Shown here: one piece after another, positions 57,001 through 63,000 of the stretch
How positions within the stretch are numbered: the first letter of the stretch is position 1
How the letters are laid out: every line of letters starts with the position of its first letter
Assembly: GCA_037379345.1 (NCBI GenBank)
Contig: CM074518.1
Coordinates: forward strand, 27,156,001 to 27,220,000
Source: Perna viridis
Taxonomy: Eukaryota
Direction of reading: 5' to 3'
Length of the DNA stretch: 64,000 nucleotides
Position numbers: made by a program

Positions 57001-60000
57001 AATCGTCGAGCACTCAATAATTGGGTTGTACCTGTTGCATGGAGATTTTTAACATTTCGGATAATATTTCATCATTTTCATGTATATCTTGCATCATGCA
57101 CGTGCATTCTTATGATTTTCGCTAGATTTTAGTTACCTCGATTACTCGTTTTCATAAATTAAACGCAATCGGCTAAATGTTGATCTCTTTTTTGAGCAGT
57201 GTGGGATTTACATTGTTGTAATTATAATCATATTGGATTTAACGAACTTGAACTGCCACTGGCGGGCTGAACATAATTACCCTTCCATAGCACACCATAA
57301 CCTTCCAGATGTTTGGATGATTTAATTTTGCAAGTAGTCTAGTTTCTTATGTATCTTGTTTTCCTTATCTTTAGTATTATGTTTGTAAAATTTATTTCAT
57401 CCTTTTTGCTATACATGGTGTATGTTGGATTCTAATTTTCACGATCAATAGTTAATAGCTTGTGGTAATCCGGTCCATTATGTAGCAGTATACTGTGGCG
57501 AAAGCTATGTTTTTTTTTTTCATCATAAATATGTAATCAATTAATTTATCTTTCCATTTAGCTAATGTTAAAACTTTGTCACAAACCAAATTAAGAATAA
57601 TAATCTATGTGTACATATTTTAAGTAATTGTGTACGATTGATACGCTAAAGTAAGCATATTTTAAGCATTGTGTATCATGGTTATTTGTTGTTCGTATCA
57701 TTAAGATTAAGATAACATTCGTAAATATTGATTGCACTTTTGCGGTATGTTCGTCAGATTCTTCTGCAATTTTTCAACTGGATATTAGGCAATGAAAACT
57801 GTTAGAGAATTTTTCCTGATGTTGGTCGCATTTTCAAATTACTTTGTCTTCTCAGCTGAATACATACAAATAATGCTTAAAGGATCGATAAATGTAAATA
57901 TGCAGACAAAAAACTCTCTCATAATACTAGTCGTTCATTGTATTAGACAACGTCTTGAAAATAAATGTCAAAATGTGAAACATTGTAAATGTATAGGTAG
58001 GAATTTGACTTATTCATTTACACATATTAGGAACCTCTGAACCAATTGTTTCATAAAATTGCACTGTAATCAACTTCCAATTTATAAATCAGACTCTCTG
58101 TCTCAACTTTTTTTTGTTGCGTGATCAATTGAATATGTAATCAATTTTTCGAAATGATATGACAATTTCCACCCATTACGTGATTCTAGTGGGGCCGATA
58201 TGGAAATGTACTGTAAAAGTACCAGTACTCAAAACGATTCAACCTGGTTATTGAGGAAGATATTTACGTAGGTATATTGGTATAACGTAGCTATAAATAA
58301 TCATACAAACAAATTCATTAGTATTTCTTAGAAAGAAATAACGCTGTTGTACAATAGAAACTACCTCTTTTTTATTTCTAAAACATCAATTTTAATAAAT
58401 GAATTGATATAAAATATATAACATAATATTGCATAATACTAGTTATCAAGTTAAGCAATTATCCAAATCTTTAAAATATCTGAGCCTCGCTATAAAAATT
58501 CAGCTTTTCAAGTCTTCAAGAATTCGTTTTTCTGTATTTGTTGACAACTGCATGAACATCGTTTTTATGTTCTTTAGCTTTGTTTATCAACAACTGCATA
58601 TTCACATCCATCATCTCCCGGTGCAATTACATGTTTAACAGAGGACGAACTGTCATCCCTGTCCTCATATGGTTTTTCGCCCTCATTATCATAGGATTCT
58701 TTTTCATCTTTGATTTTGTCATTGTTACGAGTCGCATTTGACTTAATTTGATAATTCGGTAGTTCATTCAAGTCTATTTCGCTACAGTTTGTCTCTACTT
58801 CATAAGCGACATGATGTATACCCTCTTTCTTCAATTCTTTACGACTGTTTATAATATCATGTACTCCATCATCTTCATGCAAAGCGTATAAACTGTTGTA
58901 CTGAAGTCCATATTCATCGTTGTCCTCTTGTTGTTCGTTATTTGTCTTTGCTTTCCTCCTATGTAAATTAAAACATTTTTACACTATGAAATACTGTCAT
59001 AAACTTTTATTTTCAACGGAACTGTATAAATAATATAGTTCAACATTCTAAAATCATTTCGAAATTCCACTGTTATTTTCGAGATATATTGAATTGAACA
59101 CTAGTACTAGTACTGGTAAGATCATTGCATATGCATTAAGATTTTAATTAAAGAATTCCTTATTTACTTCAACACATGATATATTGATAGTCATTACTAA
59201 TAGTAAGACCAATCAATTAAGTTATATTTTTGGTAGGCCTTGCCATAAGGATTATTTTATGTTTCTCTTTATATGTTAAGGCTTTCAACATAAAGGTCTA
59301 CACAGCCAAATTTTATTTGCACTTTCAATGACAAAACTTAATAAAAGGAATTGTAGAAACTTCATTCAATCGCGACGCATTGGAGTTTTAAAAGATGTCA
59401 TATAAATATTTCTAACCAATAGTTCCCTTAGCAGTCGGATCATTTCATTTTTTCAACGTTTCCTATGATAAATTATTAATCGTAAGATGTAAAGTGCAGA
59501 ATGCTATCCGTCCCCCCTTTCAAGGGAATATATCGTTTTAACAATATCCTATTAACATTCTTGTATGCTTATCATTAATATCATTTCATTAACTGAAAGT
59601 TTCTTTCTTTATTATATTATGGCTTCCAATATACTATGAGGAAGGTGAAATCTTAAACGCTCCCGAAAAAAACATATGCATTCAAACACCTAAGTCCTTT
59701 CATAATTTTTGTCAGCCCTGTGATCATCATCTTTTAAAGTTGTACAAGGTGTCATGATATGCGTTTTTTTTTATATTTTCATAATGCAAACTCCTATCGT
59801 CATGGTCTAATATTTGTATGGGCCGAAATGTCCAACTTCGGTAAGGAACTGAGGGTTGTCATGGTTCGAAATGTCTTTGAGTCGAATTGTCCGGTATTGA
59901 TAAGCTGATTACGAACACAACATTCGGGTGTCATGTTTTGACCATCCGTATATAGGAATGATTTCAGAGGAGACTATAATTTTTACACTTTTAAGGACGA

Positions 60001-63000
60001 ACGACGAACAACAGACAAAAGATTAACTTTGAACGATAGGGGATTGCAGCAGCACAAACAACCAAACAAAACAAAGCAATATTCTGCTGCACCGTGTGGA
60101 TGAACTTGATGCTAATATATGTTTTTCTTTTATTGTGTAAGATTATATTCATACAATGGTTTTAGTGTAATAATCTGTTGAAAGTATGCAATCTGATTAA
60201 ATTGGGAAGAAAATTATCATTACCTTGATTTTATTATGAAAAAAATTATTATCAGTACAATAAGTCCAACTCCACCAAACCCACTGCCAATGACTATGTA
60301 CAGATTGTGGTAGCTTTCTGCAATATTCAACATACATACGAACAATTATCATACTAACAGGGTTGACAAAATTAAAAGATAAAACAAGTTCGTTGAAGTC
60401 AATGTTGAAGAACAATATTTTAAAAGCATAATATAAGAAATTAAAAAAAAGAAAATTAGATTAAATTCATGATCAAATTATACTCATGCCAAGATTACAA
60501 GTCTAACACAAATTTTCAAAACATAAACGGGTATCATATAAATTCACATCAGCGATAATATAAAACGTATATTTTAACTTCATGAAATGGCAATAAAAAT
60601 AGGTAAAAAACATATAGTTAGTTCCCCATTTTAAGGATGTGTTTAGAAATAAAAACAAATTGTATTAATCCTTCCCATGTTCTGGCATTCTATTAAATCG
60701 TTACCGTCATCTTTATTCCTAAGTTTATCGTTTGTATTTCCTTTTGGACTCCCTTGCCATAAATCAGTCTGATTACAAGTAATATTTAGCCTATTACCTC
60801 GGTCTATAAAATTAGAGAGATAATGTTCAGTATTTTGAAGACACTAAAGTGCATAGATCCAGTAAAATAATGCAAGTTATAAATATTGTTTACATATGGT
60901 TGATTCAGATCAATTTAAATTAATTATAAGCATCACTTGTATCATTTGCATAACTAACAATTGCATTGATTATTGTAAAAACCTAAGAACCTTCGTTAAG
61001 CTTTTGTATACGCTATTCACTAAATTGATTATTTCATTGTTATTTATATGCTATTTTGTACTTACCTATTGAAATGCTGAAACAGTACCTTGATTCTGCA
61101 GCAAGGGTTTCTTTGATAAATGTAATATCAAGATTTTGTGACACATTAATGGGCATCGAACCGTTTATAGCACAGCTCTGTGTTATACTTTGAAACGCAT
61201 GCTGATAAAAAATTACTTTGCTATTACAATTACTACTTTTCAATGGAGGCCAAAATTGGTATCCTTGAAAATGGATGTAATTGGCGGTGTCGAATACTGC
61301 TTTCGCTGTGCACGTACAGCTTTTGACTGATTCGTTGGTGCTAAGATTTCCGTCTATCACAAAAATACTCTTTTGAGAGACTGTTGAACCAGAGCAAAAT
61401 CTGATCACTGAAAAACAACATGATCTGAGTTACTCTCCTTTGTCAAGCTTTTAAAATATGTATAAACATTGTACAAATACGAATTCATATTCAAAATTGG
61501 TTTAAAGGGATAATGCTTTTTGCGGATATTGATATGCTTTTGATAAAACATAAGAAATATGAAAGCAATATGGAATGAGTTTTGTTTGTGCGCTCTAAGT
61601 ACATTTTTGTCACATTAACATGAATTAATTATCTGCAACACAACGGCATTTCAATATTGTCGAATGTAAACTAAATAAGCAATATGTTATCGCGTCTAAA
61701 CGCAGTATTTTCCGAAGAGACCGTGAATTAAACAAGTGTTACCTGAAATTATTTTTTTTCTTTTCAAAATAAGTTAAAGTCAGAGGTCAATTCGCGTATG
61801 ACGTGGACTTTTGTTTTTTCGATGATTTGAATATTTGTATTGTAATGGATATCAAATTAAAACGGCACTTACAAGGGAGGTTCCTGTTATTTGCTTCATC
61901 TGCACAATCGCTTCCGACCGATGAGGATGTTACTAAATCAATAACTATAAAAAGAAAGTACAAACTTCAGACTTACTTATTTGTATACGACAATTCAAAT
62001 CATCAAGTGAAATATGATTTATTTTTTTCAGAGGATTCAAAATTGCTACTTAGCGTTTTATTTTCTGTTGCCGTCAGAGATTGATTCAAATGTAGTATCA
62101 CTTCTATTATAATTGCAAGAGAATAAGAGTATCGATGAAAACTAAAATAACAGGTGCAATTAAAGAAATGCACAAAAAAGACGATCAACTGAATAACATG
62201 TAGGGCAAAATTAAAATATCTATAGGTCTTATTATGCATAAAAAAATCAAAGAAAACAAAACGCCCCATCATTGTGTGTTATTAAATGATTCTAATAATA
62301 ATATTGTGTTGAAGGTTTCCAGAAGATCTTTCATTTTTTCAGGATCTAGATTGAATAAATACCACTACGGTAGTAACAAGTATTGAGGTAGAGCTGGATA
62401 CCTTCTTTTACAGCTGTGTATATAGAAGTTAGAAGTTTTGTAAGTGGTTTGGAGGTACATTTTGTAGATCCAGCTATTTAGCGTTAAGTGTATGGATTCT
62501 TGTCGAGTTTAGGAATCAAGTACATAGACGGTAAATCACAATCGTCTCATCGGTAGATAAATCAAAATAGGACAGCACAAGTTTGTGGTTTTCCACTATT
62601 TCTTTTCGGAGAGTGTTGTAGCAGTATAGGTCTGGCTACAAAGGCAATAAATCGATTGTACAATAAGTGTAAATTGAGTACTACTTACAGTTACAATATT
62701 AGATATAAGGAGCTTACAGATATAGAGTTTCTACTATTCTTAGAAATTAAACATACCTACGTTGTTGGTAACACAAAGTATCAGCATTCGCATTTGTATT
62801 ATTAATTTTCCGTATTTATGACCCATAACAACTACAAAATAATAAAATAGTCTATAAACCAATCCATTGTATAAAATCACGTTGAGATTAATTTCGTTAT
62901 ATGGCTTCTAAGATAGAAGTGCAATATGAATGAGTCTGTCTTTACATGTATATACTGAAAAGTAATGTTTTGGTGATACCCAATTATAAAGAATAGCAAG

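What the first reader, a model, noticed from the sequence alone, without database searches (positions are those of the whole stretch)
58574..62826. Gene A is a complete, apparently unannotated 353-aa receptor ORF
Six exons join without frameshift into signal peptide, 8-Cys domain and stalk with six N-x-S/T sequons, GxxxG-containing TM, basic stop-transfer KSRRK and an acidic Tyr tail. Only exons 3 and 6 appear in the ORF track. It is the best functional candidate in the window.
Basis: seen in the sequence. Interest (0 to 1): 0.7.

Follow-up and report, generated by a model that had tools for sequence, protein, structure and literature searches.

The report
Intact CUB-like membrane receptor gene
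The six-exon gene is really there and encodes a small cell-surface glycoprotein with one CUB-like binding domain, a membrane anchor and a tyrosine-rich tail; it is the only intact copy in a decaying tandem gene family of a probably molluscan genome, so it is a sound but fairly ordinary find.

Summary
The model holds. On the minus strand six exons (62826-62757, 61944-61873, 61407-61066, 60803-60705, 60317-60224, 58958-58574) total 1062 nt, giving 353 codons plus TAA. All 5 introns are GT-AG, with phases 1,1,1,1,2. The 8 cysteines, six sequons, TM helix, KSRRK and acidic Tyr tail are all present.

Exons 2-6 each have a diverged paralogue elsewhere in the window, with splice positions and phases kept wherever both ends could be read. 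dN/dS is about 0.2-0.35, and no intron similarity was found beyond interspersed repeats. All four other copies are broken.

The "8-Cys domain" is most likely a divergent CUB-like beta-sandwich. Support: language-model neighbours for two paralogues, Foldseek hits and cysteine spacings of 26 and 18. Against: no Pfam or PDB sequence match, no Foldseek hit at E<=0.001, and a failed replicate model.

The signal peptide is weak and unverified, and exon 1 has no paralogue support. The stop codon sits at a 2-nt gap relative to a paralogue. "Unannotated", expression and receptor function could not be tested. I did not build or search the joined protein.

The parts
62757..62826 (-). Exon 1, coding part (70 nt, ATG at 62826; ends in phase 1). 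Putative leader peptide.
   Evidence: Best donor match (7 of 8 to the generic consensus) among the 22 phase-1 ATG exon candidates upstream of exon 2. No paralogue support. Best 8-residue hydropathy 2.26.
62832..62833 (-). AG behind a T-rich tract, 5 nt upstream of the ATG: possible acceptor of exon 1, which would imply an upstream non-coding exon.
   Evidence: pyrimidine fraction 0.65 at -22..-3. Untested; such sites are common in DNA of 31% G+C.
61873..61944 (-). Exon 2 (72 nt, phase 1 to 1): Ser-rich linker and first ectodomain cysteine.
   Evidence: The paralogous exon at 27141-27206 (66 nt) has the same acceptor and donor positions and phases (tblastn E 0.001).
61066..61407 (-). Exon 3 (342 nt, phase 1 to 1): CUB-like domain with 6 Cys and 4 sequons.
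   Evidence: tblastn to paralogues at E 1.6e-20, 1.6e-16 and 8e-9. dN/dS 0.21-0.31. Atlas, AlphaFold2, Foldseek.
60705..60803 (-). Exon 4 (99 nt, phase 1 to 1): stalk with the eighth Cys and 2 sequons.
   Evidence: The 5' part is conserved, with the same acceptor phase, at 1916-1972 and 24702-24809 (tblastn E 0.063 and 0.31).
60224..60317 (-). Exon 5 (94 nt, phase 1 to 2): transmembrane helix with a small-xxx-small (GxxxG) motif, then K-S.
   Evidence: Mean hydropathy 2.63 over 19 aa. The paralogous TM exon at 51208-51301 has the same length, phases and donor; the one starting at 32067 has the same acceptor.
58574..58958 (-). Exon 6, coding part (385 nt including TAA): basic stop-transfer residues, then an acidic Tyr-rich cytoplasmic tail.
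   Evidence: Paralogous tail at 31243-31656 (E 4e-8, dN/dS 0.35). Blocks conserved around LQYN[ST]L and at the C-terminal end.
58516..58573 (-). Sequence just after the stop. In the +1 frame it still resembles the longer C-terminus of paralogue p36.
   Evidence: Nucleotide alignment with a 2-nt gap exactly at the stop codon.
58371..58396 (-). ATTAAA and AATAAA, 177 and 197 nt after the stop: possible polyadenylation signals.
   Evidence: Such hexamers are frequent by chance in AT-rich DNA, so this is weak evidence.
62315..62633 (.). Fragment of an interspersed repeat inside intron 1.
   Evidence: blastn copies at 47707-48025 (81%), 35055-35367 (78%), 33691-33794, 17966-18057 and 29731-29780; peptide-level matches.
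36608..36961 (-). Paralogue p36: CUB-like exon (354 nt, phase 1 to 1, all six cysteines kept).
31243..32067 (-). Paralogue p36: TM exon (starts 32067) and tail exon (31243-31656). The tail carries an in-frame stop.
26348..27206 (-). Paralogue p26: exon 2 (27141-27206) and a CUB-like exon lacking about the first 29 codons (26348-26597).
24702..24809 (-). Paralogue p26: exon 4 homologue with an in-frame TAG.
1916..3461 (-). Paralogue p3: frameshifted CUB-like exon (3103-3461) and exon 4 homologue (1916-1972). Part of a segmental duplicate of the p26 region.
   Evidence: 780-3648 matches 23067-26859 at 82-86%.
51208..52513 (-). Paralogue p52: 3' remnant of the CUB-like exon (52436-52513), preceded in the same open frame by repeat-derived sequence, and a TM exon (51208-51301).

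Best explanation
Gene A is a real protein-coding gene. It is the one intact member of a tandemly duplicated, lineage-restricted family in a probably molluscan genome.

The product is a small type I membrane glycoprotein, made up as follows:
- a short leader;
- a Ser-rich linker;
- one divergent CUB-like beta-sandwich of about 110 residues, carrying the two classical CUB disulfide spacings plus two further cysteine pairs;
- a short glycosylated stalk;
- one transmembrane helix with a conserved small-residue (GxxxG-type) face;
- a basic stop-transfer;
- a 127-residue acidic tail with conserved tyrosine motifs.

Inferred mechanism: the CUB-like domain binds an extracellular protein or glycan ligand, and the helix face mediates self-association or association with a partner. 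The tail is read out through its conserved tyrosines, by phosphorylation and SH2/PTB-type docking at the LQYN[ST]L block or by YxxPhi sorting. In short, it would be a non-enzymatic surface receptor or co-receptor.

Shown: gene structure, paralogy, a coding-type substitution pattern and the sequence features.
Inferred: fold, topology, ligand binding and signalling.
For: Gene structure:
- 1062 nt open across six exons, with GT-AG at 5 of 5 introns.
- Exons 2, 3 and 4 are all phase 1-1. From recall, this is the class typical of shuffled extracellular modules.

Paralogy inside the window:
- Exon 3 matches at E 1.6e-20, 1.6e-16 and 8e-9; exon 6 at 4e-8; exon 2 at 1e-3.
- Exon 4 and exon 5 counterparts were found by inspection.
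- Acceptor and donor positions and phases are the same for exon 2 (p26) and exon 3 (p36). The exon 3 donor (p26) and the exon 4 acceptor (p3, p26) also match. The p52 TM exon has the same length (94 nt), phases and donor, and the p36 TM exon has the same acceptor.

Selection:
- dN/dS is 0.21, 0.31 and 0.35, with the third codon position least conserved in each of those three comparisons.
- At nucleotide level only 58 nt of exon 3 match a paralogue. The introns match nothing but interspersed repeats.

Fold:
- Atlas first hit 0.95 (191 of 256 features): an unnamed 63-member cluster, commonest phylum Mollusca. CUB clusters score 0.89, 0.86 and 0.85.
- The paralogue p36 gives the same first cluster (0.93) and CUB at 0.90, with 20 of 30 hits in the CUB set.
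- The AlphaFold2 model has 9 strands, pLDDT 63.9 and pTM 0.62.
- In Foldseek against the PDB, the first 8 rows, and 28 of the 42 rows listed, are chains of CUB-containing proteins, TM about 0.5.
- Cysteine spacings are 26 (Cys4-Cys30) and 18 (Cys60-Cys78) in the exon 3 peptide. CUB disulfides in ADAMTS13 are spaced 21 or 26 and 18 (PMC8051872, passages read).
- All six exon 3 cysteines are kept in p36, and five of the five covered are kept in p26.

Topology: a single hydrophobic helix followed by KSRRK, with all six ectodomain sequons and 8 Cys on its N-terminal side.

Tail: the blocks DND[DE]YxLQYN[ST]LY and H[VM]IAPGxDGxExxVVDKxS are conserved against a background of 39% identity.
Against: Fold:
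- No Pfam family at E<=10 for any ectodomain exon of gene A, nor for exon 3 of p36 or p26.
- No PDB sequence match for exon 3 alone (0 at E<=10). The paralogue profile gave only two chance-level rows, E 0.35 and 0.45.
- Foldseek found 0 hits at E<=0.001. The best was 4.3e-3, from a model of only moderate confidence.
- The replicate with the p36 model (pLDDT 56.6) gave influenza haemagglutinin chains in every listed row, at TM 0.27-0.40, and no CUB chain.
- Atlas recognition values (2127 and 2047) lie below the 2300 that 91 in 100 proteins of known families reach. CUB rows are at or below 0.90, so they are leads only.

Gene integrity:
- The leader is weak, and exon 1 has no paralogue support.
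- The stop codon lies at a 2-nt gap relative to p36.
- All four sister copies are defective, so the family may be dying out here.

Function:
- No expression data.
- No homologues from outside the window could be fetched.
- The ITIM-type match is a short consensus. By my rough estimate it would occur in about four of ten tails holding eight tyrosines.
Confidence: 0.6

Rival explanations
1. Same protein, different role: an auxiliary subunit or chaperone of another membrane protein. CUB-bearing single-pass proteins such as Neto, LEV-10 and SOL-1 serve ion channels in this way. It would work through its CUB-like domain and its TM helix face; the tail would serve only trafficking.
For: - The small-residue motif (G/A)(G/A)VG(L/I)(L/I) is conserved in the TM exons of gene A, p36 and p52.
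- Neto2 chains are at ranks 4 and 5 of the Foldseek list.
- YxxPhi matches at YNSL and YAVV.
- Neto1 and Neto2 are single-pass proteins associated with kainate receptors (PMC3516556, abstract start seen). LEV-10 and SOL-1 are from recall.
Against: - Neto-type proteins have two CUB domains plus an LDLa module (recall); this protein has one CUB-like domain.
- Auxiliary subunits are usually conserved single-copy genes, not tandem arrays full of broken copies (inference).
- The most conserved tail block is a tyrosine cluster.
Confidence: 0.2
2. Gene A is a recently inactivated or never-expressed copy. Its frame is still open only because too little time has passed.
For: - All four other copies in the window carry stops, frameshifts, deletions or a repeat insertion.
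- Gene A's stop sits at a 2-nt gap relative to p36, and the paralogue-like coding sequence continues out of frame.
- Weak leader, with T at -3 of the first ATG.
- The repeat-rich surroundings include a repeat fragment in intron 1.
Against: - 353 codons are open in DNA where about 7% of random codons are stops (my estimate from the base counts).
- 5 of 5 introns keep GT-AG.
- All eight cysteines, the TM helix and the conserved tail blocks are intact.
- The lost C-terminal piece is short and lies after the last conserved block.
Confidence: 0.15
3. The ectodomain is a beta-sandwich of another kind, or a fold of its own, not a CUB relative.
For: - No Pfam CUB match at E<=10.
- Foldseek E-values are all above 0.001, and 14 of the 42 listed rows are other sandwiches, such as collagen-binding domains, enterotoxin C-domain, GOLD and nodavirus P-domain.
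- The second model matched haemagglutinin chains instead.
- Six cysteines in the exon, where CUB has four.
Against: - Two paralogues of 37% identity independently point to CUB and CRF-BP_N clusters in the Atlas.
- The first 8 Foldseek rows are all CUB proteins.
- Both classical disulfide spacings are matched.
- CUB domains share only 9-18% identity with each other (PMC8051872), so missing the Pfam profile is not decisive.
Confidence: 0.25
4. It is not a gene at all: a chance chain of open frames and splice-like sites.
For: About one open frame of at least 125 aa per window is expected by chance. GT, AG and T-rich tracts abound in 31% G+C DNA.
Against: - Paralogous matches down to E 1.6e-20, confined to the exons.
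- Conserved splice phases.
- dN/dS well below 1.
Confidence: 0.01

Closest known systems
CUB domain (Pfam PF00431; spermadhesins, C1r/C1s, MASPs, neuropilins, Neto, cubilin)
   Same: - About 110 residues, all-beta: 9 strands in the model.
- Top Foldseek matches are CUB proteins.
- Atlas neighbours carry CUB or CRF-BP_N.
- Cysteine spacings of 26 and 18 match the two classical disulfides.
- One domain per phase 1-1 exon.
   Different: - No match to the Pfam profile.
- Two extra cysteines inside the exon (the CxC and the RYCF positions) and one in each flanking exon.
- Heavily glycosylated.
- Whether the acidic Ca2+-site residues are present was not tested.
CDCP1 (CUB domain-containing protein 1, vertebrates)
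   Same: A type I transmembrane glycoprotein with CUB-like ectodomain modules. Its non-catalytic tail acts through tyrosines phosphorylated by Src-family kinases (PMC4395315 and PMC5448658, abstract starts seen).
   Different: - CDCP1 is much larger, with several CUB-like modules (recall).
- No sequence similarity was found or tested here.
- Gene A has one domain and a different tail.
Neto1/Neto2 and nematode LEV-10/SOL-1 (CUB-bearing auxiliary subunits)
   Same: Single-pass membrane proteins whose CUB domains contact a partner receptor. Neto2 chains are at ranks 4-5 of the fold search; PMC3516556 abstract start seen.
   Different: Two or more CUB domains plus other modules (recall). They are conserved genes, not lineage-specific tandem arrays.
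ITIM-bearing inhibitory receptors (vertebrate Ig- or lectin-type)
   Same: One match to the consensus [SIVL]xYxx[IVL], LQYNSL. It is kept as LQYNTL in the paralogue, in a non-catalytic tail of a multi-copy, fast-turnover receptor family.
   Different: The ectodomain is CUB-like, not Ig or C-type lectin. There is a single short motif and no ITAM, ITSM or NPxY. Phosphorylation and phosphatase recruitment are untested.

Membership tests
CUB domain (PF00431) | Score above Pfam's gathering cut-off for the CUB profile | tested here: not met
   0 families at E<=10 for exon 3 of gene A and for exon 3 of p36 and p26.
CUB domain (PF00431) | Antiparallel jelly-roll beta-sandwich of about 110 residues | tested here: inconclusive
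   Gene A model: 9 strands, pLDDT 63.9. 28 of 42 listed Foldseek rows are CUB proteins, including the first 8, but 0 hits at E<=0.001. The p36 model (pLDDT 56.6) matched haemagglutinin chains instead.
CUB domain (PF00431) | Two conserved disulfides, partners about 21-26 and about 18 residues apart | tested here: met
   Cys4-Cys30 are 26 apart and Cys60-Cys78 are 18 apart in the exon 3 peptide, kept in p36. Reference spacings from PMC8051872. Only the spacing was tested, not the bonds.
CUB domain (PF00431) | Acidic Ca2+-binding site (present in a subset of CUB domains only) | not tested
   No reliable residue-level alignment to a Ca2+-binding CUB domain could be made.
Type I single-pass membrane glycoprotein | Cleavable N-terminal signal peptide | tested here: inconclusive
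   Basic N-terminus, then a short hydrophobic core interrupted by Arg; best 8-residue hydropathy 2.26. No predictor was available. The junction with exon 2 was not assembled.
Type I single-pass membrane glycoprotein | One TM helix with basic residues on the cytoplasmic side; Cys and sequons on the N-terminal side | tested here: met
   Mean hydropathy 2.63 over 19 aa, the only such stretch in the six exons. KSRRK follows it. 8 Cys and 6 sequons lie upstream.
CDCP1 | Several CUB-like modules and the CDCP1-type tail | tested here: not met
   One domain only. The PF23665 CDCP1_CUB_6 label appears only on a minority of members of distant Atlas clusters.
Neto family | Two CUB domains plus an LDLa module | tested here: not met
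   Single domain and no LDLa match in Pfam. The defining architecture is from recall.
ITAM / ITIM receptors | Canonical ITAM (Yxx[LI] x6-8 Yxx[LI]) or ITIM ([SIVL]xYxx[IVL]) in the tail | tested here: inconclusive
   0 ITAM and 1 ITIM-consensus match (LQYNSL), kept in p36 as LQYNTL. A short motif; its function is untested.

The most novel reading that the evidence does not exclude
Gene A is the surviving member of a birth-and-death cluster of mollusc-specific inhibitory-type surface receptors. These would pair a CUB-like recognition domain with a conserved ITIM-like tyrosine block. That would make them an invertebrate counterpart of the fast-evolving paired immune receptor families, built on a CUB scaffold instead of an Ig or lectin scaffold.
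Probability: 0.1. Interest if true: 0.6.

Novelty: new member of a known kind. Interest (0 to 1): 0.3.

Why it matters
If it is expressed, this gene adds an unnamed, lineage-restricted family to the many CUB-bearing surface proteins of invertebrates. Standard profiles miss the family. Its locus shows gene birth and death in one view: one intact copy and four broken ones within 64 kb.

The practical value is for annotation. Of the open frames of at least 105 aa that the family contributes, only exons 3 and 6 of gene A and the CUB-like exons of p36 and p26 appear. ORF-based or profile-based pipelines would therefore miss or fragment the gene. The functional interest, a possible tyrosine-signalling or inhibitory receptor, is speculative.

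Tried and rejected
Searches that found nothing:
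- Pfam on all six exon peptides and on paralogue exons: only noise on the TM exon (E 1.5 and 3.8).
- phmmer and profile hmmsearch against PDB sequences: no match at all, or chance-level rows only.
- Rfam and tRNA scans of the window: 0 hits.
- Pfam on eight long repeat-derived frames: 0 hits at E<=0.01. I therefore dropped my recalled idea of what the repeats encode.
- Three literature searches for a CUB-type membrane family in molluscs or bivalves. Judged from titles and abstract starts only, no listed paper is on such a family.

Exon 1:
- I looked for a paralogous exon 1, or a better one. Only repeat-derived similarity lies upstream, and no convincing leader exon lies upstream of p26 or p36.
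- An alternative first exon at 63578-63497 has a weaker donor (6 of 8) and a Glu in its hydrophobic core. Rejected as less likely.

Rejected paralogue hits:
- The 'exon 2-like' hit at 52621-52556 is repeat-derived. The same peptide occurs in the repeats at 4486-5199 and 10491-10808.
- The tail-like remnant at 52948-52835 (E 0.39) gave nothing more on inspection.

Other:
- The second fold model (p36) did not reproduce the CUB matches.
- The + strand across the locus has no frame above 103 aa.

Full report
**1. The observation**

Read on the minus strand, the region holds six coding exons. I placed their ends and printed them.

| Exon | Coordinates | Length (nt) |
|---|---|---|
| 1 | 62826-62757 | 70 |
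| 2 | 61944-61873 | 72 |
| 3 | 61407-61066 | 342 |
| 4 | 60803-60705 | 99 |
| 5 | 60317-60224 | 94 |
| 6 | 58958-58574 | 385, including TAA |

- Phases after the exons are 1,1,1,1,2,0, and 5 of 5 introns are GT...AG.
- Counted exon by exon, exons 2-4 hold 1+6+1 = 8 cysteines, and exons 3 and 4 hold 4+2 = 6 sequons.
- Exon 5 holds the only strongly hydrophobic stretch of the model (mean hydropathy 2.63 over 19 residues), with a GxxxG pattern.
- KSRRK spans the exon 5/6 junction.
- The 127 whole codons of exon 6 hold 8 Tyr and 31 D/E against 16 K/R.
- Only exons 3 and 6 give open frames of at least 105 aa in this region.

Whole-protein predictions therefore remain to be done.

**2. Is it more than chance?**

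A single open frame of about 130 codons is not special. The window has 8 frames of at least 125 aa against 1.05 expected in 100 Markov simulations. Paralogy settles the question.

- tblastn of each exon peptide against the window found diverged copies, all on the minus strand.
  - Exon 3: 36959-36615 (35% identity, E 1.6e-16), 26597-26355 (45%, 1.6e-20) and 3365-3118 (8e-9, split by a frameshift).
  - Exon 6: 31656-31243 (32%, 4e-8).
  - Exon 2: 27198-27142 (1e-3).
- Inspection added two more sets:
  - exon 4 counterparts at 1916-1972 and 24702-24809;
  - TM-exon counterparts at 51208-51301 and from 32067.
- Splice positions and phases agree wherever both could be read:
  - the p26 exon 2 (phase 1 to 1);
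  - the p36 exon 3 (354 nt, phase 1 to 1);
  - the p26 exon 3 donor and the exon 4 acceptors;
  - the p52 TM exon, which is also 94 nt with the same donor.
- Codon-level comparison gives dN/dS of 0.21 (A vs p36, exon 3), 0.31 (A vs p26, exon 3) and 0.35 (A vs p36, tail). The third position is the least conserved in each of these. dS is near saturation, so the values are rough, and it could not be estimated for p36 vs p26.
- At nucleotide level only 58 nt of exon 3 still match a paralogue. The introns match nothing but interspersed repeats.

Exons 2-6 are therefore real coding exons of a gene family. Exon 1 alone has no such support.

**3. The ectodomain**

Sequence searches found nothing:
- Pfam gave no family at E<=10 for any ectodomain exon.
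- PDB sequences gave no match for exon 3 alone, and only two chance-level rows (E 0.35 and 0.45) for the paralogue profile.

Evidence pointing to a CUB-like fold:
- For exon 3 of gene A, the protein-language-model Atlas gave an unnamed 63-member eukaryotic cluster as first hit (commonest phylum Mollusca; score 0.95; 191 of 256 features). CUB-domain clusters followed at 0.89, 0.86 and 0.85, and CRF-BP_N at 0.85.
- The paralogue p36, which is 37% identical, gave the same first cluster (0.93) and CUB at 0.90, with 20 of 30 hits in the CUB set. The tool's own warnings apply. Recognition values (2127 and 2047) are below the 2300 that most proteins of known families reach, and rows under 0.9 are leads only.
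- An AlphaFold2 model of the exon 3 peptide, using the six-row paralogue alignment, is all-beta with 9 strands, pLDDT 63.9 and pTM 0.62.
- Foldseek against the PDB found nothing at E<=0.001. However, the first 8 rows, and 28 of the 42 rows listed, are chains of CUB-containing proteins: BAI3 CUB, spermadhesins, C1r/C1s, Neto2, MASPs, TMPRSS6, enteropeptidase, neuropilins, Kremen, cubilin and TSG-6. The best E is 4.3e-3 and TM is about 0.5.
  - For some of these I rely on recall that the protein holds a CUB domain.
  - The output does not say which domain of a multi-domain chain was aligned.
- In the exon 3 peptide, Cys4-Cys30 are 26 residues apart and Cys60-Cys78 are 18 apart. In ADAMTS13 the two classical CUB disulfides are spaced 21 or 26 and 18 residues. 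That paper also states that CUB domains share only 9-18% identity (PMC8051872, passages read).
- All six exon 3 cysteines are kept in p36, and five of the five covered are kept in p26.

Evidence against: the replicate model of p36 was poorer (pLDDT 56.6). It matched influenza haemagglutinin chains in every listed row, at TM 0.27-0.40, and no CUB chain.

I read the domain as CUB-like with about 0.7 confidence. I do not file it as a member of PF00431, because the profile test was not met.

**4. Membrane anchor and tail**

- The TM exon peptides of gene A, p36 and p52 share a small-residue motif, (G/A)(G/A)VG(L/I)(L/I), in the outer half of the helix. This suggests helix-helix association.
- The tail aligns with the p36 tail in two blocks: DND[DE]YxLQYN[ST]LY near the membrane and H[VM]IAPGxDGxExxVVDKxS at the end.
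- Pattern checks on the tail found:
  - no ITAM, ITSM or NPxY;
  - one ITIM-consensus match (LQYNSL, kept as LQYNTL in p36);
  - two YxxPhi matches (YNSL, YAVV);
  - one YxxQ match.
- These are short motifs, and their function is inferred only.

**5. The two ends of the gene**

N-terminus:
- Its peptide has a basic start and then a short hydrophobic core interrupted by Arg.
- The first ATG has T at -3.
- A signal peptide is expected from the cysteine- and sequon-rich N-terminal part, but it is not shown.

C-terminus:
- The TAA lies exactly at a 2-nt gap in the nucleotide alignment with p36.
- The next roughly 17 codons, read in the +1 frame, still resemble the longer end of p36.
- Gene A is thus about 18 residues shorter than that paralogue would predict. 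The cause may be a real indel on either lineage or an assembly error.
- ATTAAA and AATAAA lie 177 and 197 nt after the stop. This is weak evidence in AT-rich DNA.

**6. The locus**

All four other copies look defective:
- **p52:** only the 3' end of the CUB-like exon survives, preceded in the same open frame by repeat-derived sequence.
- **p36:** an in-frame stop in the tail exon. The two obvious donors of its TM exon are phase 0, while the tail acceptors are phase 2 (the phases are my reading of the printed sequence).
- **p26:** lacks about the first 29 codons of the domain and has a TAG in its exon 4 homologue.
- **p3:** is frameshifted. It belongs to a segmental duplicate of the p26 region at 82-86% identity.

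Other context:
- The window is full of interspersed repeats, one fragment of which lies in intron 1. Eight long frames from elsewhere in the window, most of them repeat-derived, gave no Pfam match at E<=0.01.
- G+C is about 31% throughout.
- No tRNA or Rfam match was found.
- Two N runs (29917-30107 and 42782-42996) were left as they are.
- I do not take the contig for human. The composition and the Atlas neighbours point to an invertebrate, probably a mollusc. That rests on one Atlas cluster for which the phylum is known for a single member.

**7. How it most likely works**

Shown:
- gene structure and family;
- a coding-type substitution pattern;
- the sequence features listed above.

Inferred:
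- a type I orientation with the CUB-like domain outside;
- binding of a protein or glycan ligand by that domain, as CUB domains generally do;
- association through the glycine face of the helix;
- read-out through the conserved tyrosine block, by phosphorylation and docking or by sorting.

Rivals:
- an auxiliary subunit of another membrane protein (0.2);
- a recently dead copy (0.15);
- a non-CUB sandwich (0.25, not exclusive of the main reading);
- a chance assembly of open frames (0.01).

**8. Comparison and novelty**

- In kind it resembles CDCP1. That is a type I glycoprotein with CUB-like modules and a non-catalytic tail used through Src-family phosphorylation (abstract starts of PMC4395315 and PMC5448658).
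- It also resembles Neto-type auxiliary proteins (PMC3516556, abstract start). It is a member of neither family, because the defining architectures are not met.
- Three literature searches listed no paper on such a family in molluscs. I judged this from titles and abstract starts only, and supplements were closed.
- I rate it a new member of a known kind, of modest interest.

**9. What stayed unchecked**

The open genome collection holds only bacteria and archaea, so I did not use it. No homologue from outside the window could be fetched or aligned.
- The family's taxonomic range, orthologues and annotation status are therefore unknown.
- Expression, signal-peptide cleavage, glycosylation, disulfides, ligand and signalling are all untested.

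Noticed in passing
window 1916-3461, 24702-27206, 31243-36961, 51208-52513 (all minus strand): Four further copies of the same gene family lie in tandem orientation, each with at least one defect: a frameshift, in-frame stops, a missing 5' third of the domain exon, or a repeat-derived stretch replacing most of the domain exon. It is a birth-and-death cluster with gene A as the only intact copy.
   Followed up: partly
window 780-3648 versus 23067-26859: A segmental duplication of about 3 kb at 82-86% nucleotide identity carries introns as well as exons of copies p3 and p26. The match falls into three blocks, with extra sequence in one copy between them.
   Followed up: partly
window 58516-58576 (minus strand): Gene A's stop codon coincides with a 2-nt gap relative to paralogue p36. 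Downstream sequence keeps the paralogue's C-terminal reading in the +1 frame. This is either a recent indel or an assembly error.
   Followed up: partly
window 4486-5199 (+), 29181-29519 (-), 46785-47132 (-), 32215-32553 (+): Several copies of one interspersed repeat with long open frames that are related at protein level.
   Followed up: partly
window 47547-48179 (-), with fragments at 62315-62633, 35055-35367, 33691-33794, 17966-18057 and 29731-29780: A second repeat family with a 210-aa open frame. One fragment sits in intron 1 of gene A. No Pfam match at E<=0.01.
   Followed up: partly
window 10491-10808 (-), 28840-29199 (-), 44965-45426 (-), 46412-46774 (-), about 34164 (-), 4486-5199 (+): A short, very hydrophobic repeated coding-like segment (motif ...CFPCLVFVPGLH... 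and relatives) recurs many times. It is often next to the first repeat family and mimics TM helices in hydropathy scans.
   Followed up: no
window 29917-30107 and 42782-42996: Two runs of N (191 and 215 bases). They were left untouched. Open frames listed across them are artefacts.
   Followed up: no
window 62050-62272 (minus strand, intron 1): A 91-aa open frame inside intron 1 with hydrophobic stretches and an ATG. It has only poor phase-1 donors (4 of 8) and no paralogue match, so it is probably not an exon.
   Followed up: partly
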